Shown: positions 1,298 through 30,586, numbered from the stretch's first letter. The stretch: DNA of 64,000 nt from Promethearchaeota archaeon (GCA_030603385.1 JAUVXW010000006.1:64001-128000), one strand, 5' to 3'. Program-made: numbers and translations. Notes: a model not told the origin generated them from the letters alone.

Positions 1298-3274
1298 TTA
1301 ACCACCTCCTAAAAGACCATCAATTTCAGCAAATAATTGATGATCGCGATAATATCTGATATCAATTGCTTGAGTAGGACAACACGTGGCACAAATACCG
1401 CATCCGTCACAATTTATTTCATCAATAAACGCACCGATATCCTTTTCAATCCTAATGGCATTTTTAGGACATTCTTTTTCGCATCGTCTACAAGAAATGC
1501 AGAATTCACTGTCCACCTCAGCAGTAATAAGTTCTATATCGATTTCTCCTGGTGATGTTAACTCAGCAACTTTACTTGCAGCAGCTCTAGCTTGAGAAAC
1601 TGAATAAGAAATATTTTTCGGTCCTTGAGCAAATCCAGCTATAAAAATGCCTTTCGACTTAGTCTCTTGCGGCATTAAACCGAAATGTGATTCTGTTAGA
1701 AAGCCATAAGTGTTAGTATCAAGATTTAAGACTTCTACAATTTGTTGGGTACCTTTTGAAGGGAGTGCTGCTGTGGATAACACAACTAAATCAGCATCAA
1801 TTATTACAATCTTATCTGTTAATGATGAATATACTCGAACTTTCACGTTTTTTGTTTCAGGATCTTCAGAAATTTCACCTACCTTCCCACGAATCATTCT
1901 AATACCAGCGTCTTTAGCTCGTTCATAGTATTCTTCAAATCCTTTTTCAGGAGTTCTTATGTCAATATAACAGATTGTAATGTTCGCATCAGGAAATTCT
2001 TCTAAAAGCAATCGCCCATTCTTTAGAGCAAGCATACAACACACTCCGCTACAATAAGTTCTTTCTGTTTCTCTACTACCAACACATTGAATAAAAACAA
2101 TTTCCTTAGGTTTCTTATTATCTGAAATTCGATGCACATGGCCTTCAAGTGGTCCATTTGGAGCTAATATTCGTTCTAATTGAACTTGAGTTATAACATT
2201 TTCAAATTCTCCATATCCGTATTCACCAAAAGGTTCATGTATGTCCCAACCAGTTGCTATAATGATTGTACCAACCTCGACATTGACTTCTTTGGGTTCT
2301 TGACTAAAATCAATAGCATCCAATTCACAAGCATCTACACACGAAAAACATTCTACACATGCATTTCTATCAATATCATATAGAAACGGCACTGCTTGGT
2401 CAAATGGAATATCTATTGCCCTTCGTGCTCCTAAATTTTCATCGAAATAATTCGTTGTATAAACTGGACAGACTTCAGCGCAAGCACCACACCCATTGCA
2501 TTCATCTGTTGTATATCGCGGTTTTTTCTCAATAGTTACGTTATAATTACCGACATATCCTTCGATATTCTTTACTTCACTATAAGTTAATAATTCAATA
2601 TTATCATTTCTATTAATTTTTAACATCACTGGACCACAGATTCAGATAGCACAGTCATCTGTAGGAAAAGTTCTGTCTAATTGAGACATTCTTCCTCCTA
2701 TCGTAGTCTTAAGTTCTACCAGATACACCTTAATACCTTGATTCGCCAGATCTAGAGCTGCGTTCATACCCCCGATCCCTCCTCCTACAACTAAAGTGGC
2801 TTTAGTGACAGGAACAGTTTTAATAGGAACAGGTTCTAAGCGTTTAGCTCTTTCAATACCACTTTTTACTAAAATTTTCGCTTTTTCTGTAGCTTCTTCT
2901 TTGTTATCAGTACACCATGAACAGTGTTCACGAACATTGACCATTTGAAAGTAATAGGGATTTAAGTCTGTTTTAGCAATTGTACCCCTGTAAATCACTT
3001 CATGAGTTCGAGGGGTTCAAGCCGATGCTACTATTCTATTTAGATTCTTTTCTTTGATATCCTCTATTATCTCATTTTGTGCATTATCAGTTCAAAGAAA
3101 TGCATTCTTCTTTGAGATTATAATTTCATCAGGAAATTCGCTTTTAACATATTCTACTAGTTCATCGCAGTCAACTTTGCTTCTTATGTCTGTATTAAAA
3201 ATTTGAAATAAATTTTTTTTTATACCTCACTGACATGCATAGTATCCAATCCGATGATTTTCATTACTAATCAT
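1298..3274 (-). CDS. hdrA: Heterodisulfide reductase subunit A (flavin-based electron bifurcation), selenoprotein with 4 Sec and a predicted 30-nt intron
   Basis: ORF-track pieces 1298-2629 and 2642-2998 and the upstream sequence form one frame broken only by TGA at 3229-3227 (CQUG), 3094-3092 (FLUTD), 3019-3017 (SAUTPRTHE) and 2644-2642 (FPTDDCAIUI), all at conserved Cys positions. Also has a GGGIGG FAD motif, ferredoxin motifs and CVGSR. An alternative ATG lies at 3289. Confidence 0.92.
3190..3219 (-). other. Predicted 30-nt BHB-type mRNA intron in hdrA
   Basis: Central helix GUAU/AUAC (4 Watson-Crick pairs), bulges AA^A and AG^A, and an 8-bp intron stem AAAAAUUU/AAAUUUUU after one A-A mismatch. 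Removal converts CQUG-IKKNLFQIFNT-DI to CQUGINI, matching the HdrA CxCGxNI consensus. Confidence 0.7.
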
Positions 3275-30156: not shown

Positions 30157-30586
30157 ATGTCTAAAGATAAAATAATAAAGGTTCTTGTATGTAAGCCTGG
30201 GCTTGACGGGGGTTTTTAGAGCCTCCGGGCTTAACGGGCATGATAGAGGAGCCAAAGTTTTGGCTAGAGCTTTAAGAGATGCGGGAATGGAAGTTATTTA
30301 TACAGGTATCCATCAAACGCCTGATGACATCGTTAATACTGTCATCCAAGAAGATCCTGATGCAGTAATGTTAAGTATATTATCAGGATCTCATAATGCT
30401 CTTTGTCCTATTATTATGCAAAAACTTAAGGAACAAGGTATCGATGATGTCCTTGTAGCTGTTGGAGGTATTATCCCTGATGAAGATAAACCTTTCTTAG
30501 AGGAACAGGGTTTGAAGGGATTTTACGGACCAGGAACTAATTTGAGTACGATTGTTGAATTTGTGAAAAACAACTTAAAAAGATAA
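30157..30586 (+). CDS. Cobalamin-binding small subunit of the acyl-CoA mutase, interrupted by a 28-nt predicted BHB intron
   Basis: GGTGA-6nt-ATG 30157 gives MSKDKIIKVLVCKPGLDG then TAG at 30217. The rest (HDRGAKVLARALRDAGMEVIYTG...) is in the +1 frame. Removing 30206-30233 gives a 133-aa protein with KPGLDGHDRG. Confidence 0.9.
30206..30233 (+). other. Predicted 28-nt canonical BHB mRNA intron
   Basis: Exon helix GCCUG/CGGGC (5 bp), central helix GGCU/GGCU (4 bp), bulges UG^A and UA^A, and intron stem CGGGGGUUU/GAGCCUCCG (9 bp, UUA loop). Confidence 0.85.

What the first reader, a model, noticed from the sequence alone, without database searches (positions are those of the whole stretch)
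3185..3229. Second BHB-type intron (30 nt, in frame) seven nucleotides after the first Sec codon of hdrA
Seen: the hdrA N-terminus reads CQUG-IKKNLFQIFNT-DIRSKVD, 10 residues longer than the family motif CxCGxNIxxxVD, and the extra DNA is an almost pure A/T hairpin. It folds with a Watson-Crick central helix GUAU(3225-3222)/AUAC(3195-3192), bulges AA^A and AG^A, an 8-bp intron stem after one A-A mismatch, and a weak exon helix (G-C, A-A, G-U, U-A). BHB-rule cleavage removes 3219-3190 and gives UGA GGU AUA A|AC AUA = CQUGINIRSKVD, creating the conserved Asn that is absent from the genomic reading. Inference: this is a cryptic intron that gene callers would miss because it keeps the frame.
Basis: partly seen in the sequence, partly recalled or inferred. 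Interest (0 to 1): 0.9.

Follow-up and report, generated by a model that had tools for sequence, protein, structure and literature searches.

The report
Cryptic tRNA-type mini-intron in hdrA
A 30-base A/T-rich hairpin unique to this Lokiarchaeia-type archaeon sits inside the most conserved motif of its selenoprotein gene hdrA. It has the exact shape and size of the tRNA-style mini-introns that break other essential genes of the same genome, so it is very probably cut out of the mRNA, although no transcript could be examined.

Summary
hdrA (minus strand, 1298-3274, four in-frame TGA at Cys positions) carries a 30-nt insert (3190-3219) that splits the Asn codon of the CxCG-x-N-I motif. The insert is absent from 17 metagenomic orthologs, from all 18 same-genus genomes that carry the gene, and from solved HdrA structures. 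The insert boundaries coincide with bulge-helix-bulge (BHB) geometry: a 4-bp central helix, two 3-nt bulges and an 8-bp inner stem.

A motif-free comparison with a congener found eight stop-containing or frameshifting inserts of 30-32 nt in conserved genes of this genome, among them rpoA1, uvrB, a histone and thioredoxin. All eight have the same geometry at their boundaries. Ordinary stop-free indels of similar length do not. A ninth (28 nt) lies in this window, and a congener's hdrA carries a different 39-nt BHB intron. An (alpha-beta)2-type EndA and RtcB are encoded.

This scan has already reported the same intron class in other Lokiarchaeia genomes. I found nothing in print beyond cbf5 of Crenarchaeota.

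The parts
1298..3274 (-). hdrA coding sequence as encoded in DNA (ATG at 3274, MISNENHRIGYY...; 658 codons including the insert; four TGA = Sec at codons 16, 61, 86 and 211)
   Evidence: orthologs begin at the same place; matches HdrA structures 5ODC/8RVU/7BKB
3220..3274 (-). exon 1 (ends ...TGA GGT ATA A)
3190..3219 (-). 30-nt intervening sequence (10% G+C), in frame and stop-free. Equivalent cut positions are one base apart because A3219 = A3189.
   Evidence: absent from all orthologs; unique in the genome
1298..3189 (-). exon 2 (starts AC ATA AGA AGC...)
3185..3229 (-). whole BHB motif including the weak exon-exon helix (3226-3229 with 3185-3188)
3222..3225 (-). central helix, 5' (exonic) strand GUAU
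3192..3195 (-). central helix, 3' (intronic) strand AUAC
   Evidence: complementary to the exon at only 1% of positions in hdrA
3219..3221 (-). bulge 1, AA^A; predicted 5' cut between 3220 and 3219
3189..3191 (-). bulge 2, AG^A; predicted 3' cut between 3190 and 3189
3197..3217 (-). intron hairpin: 8 A-U pairs (3210-3217 with 3197-3204) and a 5-nt loop (3205-3209)
3227..3229 (-). first Sec codon (TGA, codon 16), part of the weak exon helix
   Evidence: TGA at the same place in 18 congeners that have no hairpin
30206..30233 (+). the other BHB intron of this window: a 28-nt frame-breaking insert in the B12-binding mutase subunit; excision gives KPGLDGHDRGAK
   Evidence: central 4/4, inner 8/8, outer 4/4

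Best explanation
Positions 3190-3219 are a recently gained archaeal bulge-helix-bulge (BHB) mini-intron in the hdrA mRNA.

Proposed mechanism: in the transcript, the last exon bases GUAU pair with AUAC at the 3' end of the insert. The A/U hairpin stacks on one side of this helix, and two 3-nt bulges are presented on opposite strands. The two-subunit splicing endonuclease EndA cuts after the second base of each bulge. RtcB then joins the exons, giving UGA GGU AUA AAC AUA, the CQ-U-G-I-N-I-R-S-K-V-D sequence shared by all relatives.

Because the insert is 30 nt long and has no stop in frame, gene callers read it as 10 extra residues and an Asn-to-Asp change. Unspliced mRNA would also still yield a full-length protein, so splicing need not be complete.

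Shown here: the insertion, its uniqueness to this species, the geometry, the existence of the intron class in this genome and genus, and the presence of the enzymes. Inferred: cleavage and ligation in vivo, and their efficiency.
For: (1) The insert is absent from 17 metagenomic orthologs, from the closest DNA ortholog and from 18 of 18 same-genus genomes with the gene. Excision restores an Asn that every aligned ortholog and PDB 5ODC_A carry.

(2) The BHB sits exactly at the insertion boundaries and scores (central 4/4, inner 7/8, outer 3/4). Nulls: 236/200,000 shuffles, 20/1907 alternative positions, 1/30 rotations.

(3) A motif-free census used ORFs from 2.8 Mb of congener G006 against this genome by tblastn. 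Stop-containing or frameshifting inserts cluster at 30-32 nt: uvrB, rpoA1, a histone, a small GTPase, thioredoxin, a MoxR-like ATPase, an epimerase-like gene and one more. All have a BHB at their boundaries, scoring (3-4, 5-8, 2-3). About 30 ordinary stop-free indels of 27-36 nt never exceed 14 on the same score, against 16.5 for hdrA, and never at the boundary.

(4) The same window holds a 28-nt frame-breaking BHB intron. The hdrA of congener G020 has a different 39-nt BHB intron with an in-frame TAA, whose excision gives YFQMVNVREHCSW.

(5) 7 of 24 reading frames through the verified introns are stop-free, so cryptic examples are expected.

(6) There are two EndA paralogs. The 198-aa one has Tyr/His/Lys; the 200-aa one lacks the His. 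RtcB is present.

(7) At 15 C the BHB fold is the MFE, at -8.9 kcal/mol. The closest relatives come from marine sediment.
Against: The BHB is the least stable of the set at 37 C: -2.4 kcal/mol with the core forced, against -8.5 to -11.8 for the verified introns, and a different fold is the MFE at -3.1. The exon helix is poor and the inner stem starts with an AxA mismatch, so the motif is relaxed rather than canonical.

Being in frame and stop-free is also what a translated insertion would look like, so nothing forces removal. The insert exists in a single genome, so no covariation test is possible. The source is a metagenome-assembled genome with about 7% contamination, and I could not check read support for the insert.
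Confidence: 0.77

Rival explanations
1. The 30 nt are translated. They are either an ordinary in-frame insertion or an intron-derived element that is no longer, or only poorly, recognised. In that case HdrA of this species carries a 10-residue loop and Asp in place of the conserved Asn next to the N-terminal Fe-S ligands.
For: The insert is in frame and stop-free. The BHB is weak at 37 C and is not the MFE. Ordinary stop-free 30-nt indels do exist in this genome: six were seen against G006.
Against: Those ordinary indels lie in variable or low-complexity regions and lack a BHB at their boundaries. This insert splits a near-invariant codon two residues after a cluster ligand, between invariant positions. 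Its 3' end is complementary to the local exon, with 1% expectation. It has the exact 30-nt size and the hairpin with 5-nt loop of the obligatory introns.
Confidence: 0.16
2. The insert is an assembly or strain artefact of the metagenome-assembled genome, and the real gene has no insert.
For: The genome is a MAG with 58 contigs and about 7% contamination.
Against: Assemblers do not invent a 30-nt hairpin whose ends fit BHB rules and split a codon cleanly. The same kind of insert recurs in at least nine other genes here and in two independent congener assemblies, one of them a single contig.
Confidence: 0.03
3. The hairpin acts in translation rather than splicing. It could be a bacterial-type SECIS or Sec-redefinition element for the UGA seven bases upstream, or a gene-60-like bypass element.
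For: The hairpin begins shortly after a UGA-Sec codon.
Against: All 18 congeners and 17 metagenomic orthologs keep the same TGA with no hairpin, so decoding does not need it. Bypass would need matching take-off and landing codons that give G-I-N-I. The only later AUA triplets would give a stop or a product lacking N-I (sequence). The other inserts of the class are not next to UGA codons.
Confidence: 0.03

Closest known systems
BHB intron in the cbf5 pre-mRNA of Crenarchaeota (Watanabe 2002; Yokobori 2009, PMC2738675)
   Same: An intervening sequence in an archaeal protein-coding mRNA whose boundaries form a bulge-helix-bulge motif. It is removed by the tRNA-splicing endonuclease and a ligase, and it is present or absent among related species.
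   Different: That is one gene in a different phylum. Here the intron is one of at least ten in a single Lokiarchaeia-type genome, and the sizes are uniform and tiny (28-32 nt). This copy is in frame and stop-free, so it is invisible to annotation; it is species-specific and lies 7 nt after a Sec codon. Its splicing is not demonstrated.
Non-canonical tRNA introns of Asgard archaea and Thermoproteales (Marck & Grosjean 2003; PMC11291895; bioRxiv 10.64898/2026.10.13.758758)
   Same: Short inserts bounded by hBHBh' or relaxed motifs. They were gained repeatedly and independently, and they occur in lineages with two EndA paralogs consistent with the (alpha-beta)2 architecture.
   Different: The host is an mRNA, so the exon half of the motif is constrained by codons rather than by tRNA structure. 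The papers I could search describe only tRNA genes for Asgard archaea.
30-nt BHB mini-introns in protein genes of Lokiarchaeia-type genomes reported earlier in this scan (e.g. E1-like, aIF2-gamma, thioredoxin, lsrF, rnhB, fwdB)
   Same: Same size, same geometry, same taxon; they often sit in cofactor- or nucleotide-binding motifs.
   Different: Those break the reading frame or carry stops, so removal is obligatory. This one keeps the frame, has an all-A/U stem, and is found in a single species.
HAC1/XBP1 unconventional mRNA splicing in eukaryotes
   Same: Endonuclease-plus-RtcB/Trl1 splicing of a short mRNA intron, defined by RNA structure and independent of the spliceosome.
   Different: The nuclease is different (Ire1), the stem-loops are different, and the splicing is regulatory. 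No evidence for regulation exists here.

Membership tests
Archaeal BHB (hBHBh') intron, substrate of EndA | [quoted passage not shown] | tested here: met
   GUAU/AUAC with bulges AAA and AGA at 3219-3225 and 3189-3195
Archaeal BHB (hBHBh') intron, substrate of EndA | Flanking helices h (exon-exon) and h' (intron) stacked on the central helix | tested here: inconclusive
   h' has one AxA mismatch followed by 8 A-U pairs. h is only G-C, AxA, G.U, U-A, and the full structure scores +2.0 kcal/mol at 37 C. The motif is relaxed (HBh'-like), comparable to the uvrB and GTPase introns of the same genome.
Archaeal BHB (hBHBh') intron, substrate of EndA | Cutting after the second base of each bulge yields the functional mature sequence | tested here: met
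   The product G-I-N-I-R-S-K-V-D equals the orthologs
Archaeal BHB (hBHBh') intron, substrate of EndA | The intervening sequence is absent from homologous genes | tested here: met
   0 of 17 metagenomic orthologs and 0 of 18 congeners carry it. Paralogs in the genome match over 420-441 nt where this gene needs 480.
Archaeal BHB (hBHBh') intron, substrate of EndA | The genome encodes the splicing endonuclease and an RNA ligase | tested here: met
   Two PF01974 hits above cut-off (198 aa with Y/H/K; 200 aa without the His) and RtcB at 558 bits
Archaeal BHB (hBHBh') intron, substrate of EndA | A spliced RNA, or an excised or circular intron, is observed | not testable with these tools
Exact-pattern scans for either junction found nothing.
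Lokiarchaeia-type mRNA mini-intron class (this genome and genus) | Length 28-32 nt (rarely 39), with a 5-9-bp hairpin filling the intron | tested here: met
   30 nt with an 8-bp stem and 5-nt loop. Census members are 30, 30, 30, 30, 30, 30, 31 and 32 nt; the in-window intron is 28 nt.
Lokiarchaeia-type mRNA mini-intron class (this genome and genus) | Interrupts the reading frame (stop or frameshift), so removal is obligatory | tested here: not met
   This insert is in frame with no stop. That is expected for about 29% of members (7 of 24 frames), so this is not a defining failure, but it removes the functional-necessity argument.
Bacterial-type SECIS or Sec redefinition element | A hairpin after UGA that is required for decoding, and so conserved wherever the UGA is | tested here: not met
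   The same TGA occurs in 18 congeners and in the metagenomic orthologs with no hairpin
Programmed translational bypass (T4 gene 60, mitochondrial byps) | Matching take-off and landing codons flanking the skipped stretch | tested here: not met
   No codon pair gives G-I-N-I. Other class members lack matched codons as well, e.g. TAC versus GAT in the C10 intron.

The most novel reading that the evidence does not exclude
Because the intron keeps the frame and its all-A/U BHB is only marginally stable, splicing may be partial or condition-dependent. Temperature is one candidate condition: the BHB fold is the MFE at 15 C but not at 37 C. The cell would then make two HdrA isoforms that differ next to the Se/S-ligated N-terminal Fe-S cluster. 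That would be an archaeal, endonuclease-based counterpart of alternative or regulated splicing, in the closest relatives of eukaryotes.
Probability: 0.12. Interest if true: 0.9.

Novelty: new variant of a known kind. Interest (0 to 1): 0.72.

Why it matters
In the papers I could search, endonuclease-type splicing of a coding region in archaea is documented only for cbf5 of Crenarchaeota. Here an Asgard (Lokiarchaeia-type) genome carries at least ten such mini-introns, several of them in essential genes.

The hdrA copy shows a hidden side of the phenomenon. About a third of these introns should keep the frame. They would pass unnoticed as 10-residue 'insertions', which corrupts predicted protein sequences and conserved motifs.

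This copy is also absent from all 18 congeners examined, so it is a very young gain with known 'before' sequences. That makes it useful material for the open question of how such introns arrive.

Finally, its in-frame nature means that spliced and unspliced messages both encode full-length proteins. This is the minimum requirement for splicing-based protein diversity.

Tried and rejected
(1) My first genome-wide BHB scans used a wrong geometry with 2-nt bulges. I discarded them.

(2) The corrected BHB-first scans, with or without an ORF-joining filter, gave no peak at 30 nt. Chance motifs (about 1700 per length) and adjacent-gene boundaries swamp the roughly ten real cases. BHB-likeness alone is therefore not evidence; only its coincidence with independently defined insertion boundaries is.

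(3) A nucleotide-level comparison with the congener (blastn) was too diverged, at 72% identity, to call indels. I replaced it with tblastn of ORFs.

(4) A covariance model of the class could not be built. MAFFT cannot align the members in structural register because they share shape, not sequence.

(6) Exact-pattern scans of metagenome and genome contigs found nothing for the spliced or unspliced junction or for the intron core.

I inferred the taxon from names on EndA homologs.

(8) My strict-geometry scan did not reproduce a canonical BHB for the Elf1 and uL11 inserts noted by first readers. The breaks are there, but the motifs are non-canonical.

(9) I considered SECIS-like and bypass readings and rejected them (see rival explanations).

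Full report
**The gene and the insert**

The minus strand of 1298-3274 encodes a full-length HdrA. It has four in-frame TGA codons at positions where relatives have Cys, or TGA translated as W by gene callers. It is followed 6 nt later by an MvhD/FlpD gene that also contains TGA. The N-terminus reads C-Q-U-G-I-KKNLFQIFNT-D-I-R-S-K-V-D.

All other sequences read G-[IV]-N-I at this point with no extra residues. This holds for nineteen aligned orthologs at 43-85% identity, the DNA of the closest metagenomic ortholog, the hdrA of 18 genomes of the same genus and the solved HdrA structure 5ODC_A. At the DNA level our gene is GGT ATA A[30 nt]AC ATA, where the nearest congeners have GGT ATA AAC ATC. 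The 30 nt therefore sit inside the Asn codon. This Asn is nearly invariant in the alignment and lies two residues after the second cluster-ligand position. The insert occurs once in the genome, with no copy within 5 mismatches.

**Is the fold more than chance?**

By energy alone, no. The region's MFE at 37 C is a different fold (-3.1 kcal/mol, z = -0.6). A BHB of this quality (central 4/4, inner >=7/8) at a fixed length of 30 also occurs about 1700 times in the genome by chance.

What is not chance is that it falls exactly on boundaries defined independently by the ortholog alignment. Only 236 of 200,000 composition-preserving shuffles of the insert reach this quality. The same insert would complete a BHB at only 20 of 1907 positions of hdrA. 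Only 1 of 30 rotations of the insert works.

**The genomic context changed my reading**

My starting odds for an intron were about 15%. First-stage notes on other parts of this genome mentioned 30-nt inserts in essential genes, so I tested that independently.

I fetched 2.8 Mb of a single-contig genome of the same genus, G006. I searched all its ORFs against this genome with tblastn, using no structural criterion. Stop-free in-frame insertions decline smoothly with length and show no peak at 30 nt. Their counts in the two batches were:

| Length (nt) | 15 | 18 | 21 | 24 | 27 | 30 | 33 |
|---|---|---|---|---|---|---|---|
| Count (batch 1 + batch 2) | 27+13 | 23+14 | 6+11 | 10+6 | 6+2 | 4+2 | 3+3 |

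Stop-containing or frameshifting insertions in well-conserved genes are different. They cluster at 30-32 nt:

- uvrB, inside YYDYYQPE|AY (30 nt)
- rpoA1, at DEDG|L-PI (30 nt)
- a histone (30 nt)
- a small GTPase, just before its P-loop (30 nt)
- thioredoxin, just before WCGPC (30 nt)
- a gene on contig C10 (30 nt)
- a MoxR-like ATPase (32 nt)
- an epimerase-like gene (31 nt)

At the alignment-defined boundaries every one of them forms a BHB. The counts (central/4, inner/8, outer/4) are (4,7,2), (4,8,2), (4,7,2), (4,6,2), (3,7,2), (3,8,3), (4,8,2) and (3,5,3), and excision restores the ortholog's sequence. hdrA scores (4,7,3).

About thirty ordinary stop-free indels of 27-36 nt, taken in both directions of comparison, never exceeded 14 on the same score, against 16.5 for hdrA. 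This was true even when I took the best of 31 neighbouring positions, and the best position never fell on the boundary.

Further cases support the class:

- The reverse comparison found two more 30-nt BHB inserts in G006.
- This window contains a 28-nt frame-breaking BHB intron in the B12-binding mutase subunit (30206-30233; score 4,8,4; excision gives KPGLDGHDRGAK).
- The hdrA ortholog of congener G020 carries a different 39-nt insert with an in-frame TAA. Its only BHB solution (4,8,3) restores YFQMVNVREHCSW.

Single-copy essential genes such as rpoA1 cannot be expressed unless these inserts are removed. The only known machinery that uses this geometry is EndA plus a ligase.

**Machinery and organism**

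The genome has two PF01974 proteins. A 198-aa protein retains the Tyr/His/Lys catalytic positions. A 200-aa paralog lacks the His. [quoted passage not shown] RtcB is also present (subunit roles are inferred from sequence, and the type's specificity is from PMC5829648).

Names on close EndA homologs place the organism in Promethearchaeota/Lokiarchaeia, with relatives from marine sediment. ARAGORN recognises only 22 tRNA genes in a genome that is 94% complete. That fits heavily interrupted tRNA genes, as published for other Asgard lineages (PMC11291895; bioRxiv 10.64898/2026.10.13.758758).

**The frame-preserving nature**

Of the 24 reading frames through the eight census introns, 7 are stop-free. 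About 0.4 cryptic introns are therefore expected for each stop-containing 30-nt intron, or two to three per genome. Six ordinary 30-nt stop-free indels were seen.

A rough calculation follows. Take prior odds of about 2.5:6. Suppose about 60% of true members reach this motif quality, while about 0.1% of random inserts do. Membership of the class is then favoured by a few hundred to one. I put membership near 95%.

In vivo splicing at an appreciable level I put lower, at about 77%. With the BHB core forced, hdrA reaches only -2.4 kcal/mol at 37 C, against -8.5 to -11.8 for the obligatory introns. Its exon helix is poor, and its inner stem begins with a mismatch. At 15 C, closer to sediment temperatures, the BHB fold becomes the MFE at -8.9 kcal/mol.

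**Alternatives**

- *Translated insertion:* this cannot be excluded without RNA or protein data. However, the insert's position between invariant residues, its complementarity to the local exon and its class-typical size all argue against an ordinary indel.
- *Sec-decoding role:* unnecessary, because all relatives decode the same UGA without the hairpin.
- *Translational bypass:* there are no matching take-off and landing codons.
- *Assembly artefact:* implausible, given the recurrence of the class in independent assemblies.

**Comparison with what is known**

In the literature I could search, BHB splicing of a coding region is established only for cbf5 in Crenarchaeota (PMC2738675). For Asgard archaea only tRNA introns are described. 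Earlier reports of this scan describe the same 30-nt class in other Lokiarchaeia-type genomes. Those are leads, not evidence. I verified the class here independently.

This instance is distinct in three ways. It is cryptic, being in frame and stop-free. It is a species-specific, hence very recent, gain. It lies next to a Sec codon in an Fe-S ligand motif.

**Limits**

- No transcript, read-depth or proteomic evidence was available.
- No covariation test is possible, because there is only one carrier.
- EndA substrate range is inferred from family knowledge.
- The census used one congener and 84% of its genome.

Noticed in passing
window 30206-30233 (+): A 28-nt GC-rich BHB intron breaks the B12-binding mutase small-subunit gene. 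Excision restores KPGLDGHDRGAK. The score is central 4/4, inner 8/8, outer 4/4.
   Followed up: partly
G000 contigs: C4:251907-251936, C4:220013-220042, C10:126771-126800, C6:1296-1325, C1:11442-11471(-), C51:66051-66080(-), C26:16566-16597(-), C18:22614-22644: Eight stop-containing or frameshifting 30-32-nt inserts with BHB boundaries, found by a motif-free comparison with a congener. They lie in uvrB, rpoA1, an unnamed C10 gene, a histone, a small GTPase, thioredoxin, a MoxR-like ATPase and an epimerase-like gene. They share shape, not sequence. The first base of both bulges is A in 8 of 8.
   Followed up: yes
L026 (G020:C91), about 975-1013: The hdrA ortholog of a congener has a different 39-nt BHB intron with an in-frame TAA in YFQMVN|VREHCSW. 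This is an independent gain in the same gene.
   Followed up: yes
G006:C1:337487-337516 and 1505071-1505100; also 337598-337627: The congener G006 has its own 30-nt BHB inserts that are absent from this genome, one of them in a UPP-synthase-like gene at DG|NRRWAK. A stop-free 30-nt insert with a 4-bp central helix but a poor inner stem lies 111 nt after the first one, in the same gene. It may be a second cryptic example.
   Followed up: partly
window 2642-3229 (-) and orthologs L012-L029: The three N-terminal TGA codons of hdrA (codons 16, 61, 86) are conserved as TGA in 16 of 18 congeners. Two congeners have Cys (TGT/TGC) at codon 61. Multi-Sec HdrA is therefore a stable trait of the genus.
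   Followed up: partly
whole genome G000: ARAGORN recognises only 22 tRNA genes (9 with introns) in a genome that is 94% complete. This suggests that many tRNA genes are interrupted beyond recognition.
   Followed up: no
G000:C39:2045-2300 (Elf1) and C41(-) around index 69540 (uL11): Both genes are broken by inserts of about 31-37 nt, as first readers noted, but my strict 3-nt-bulge, 4-bp-helix scan found no canonical BHB at the required boundaries. They may use relaxed motifs.
   Followed up: partly
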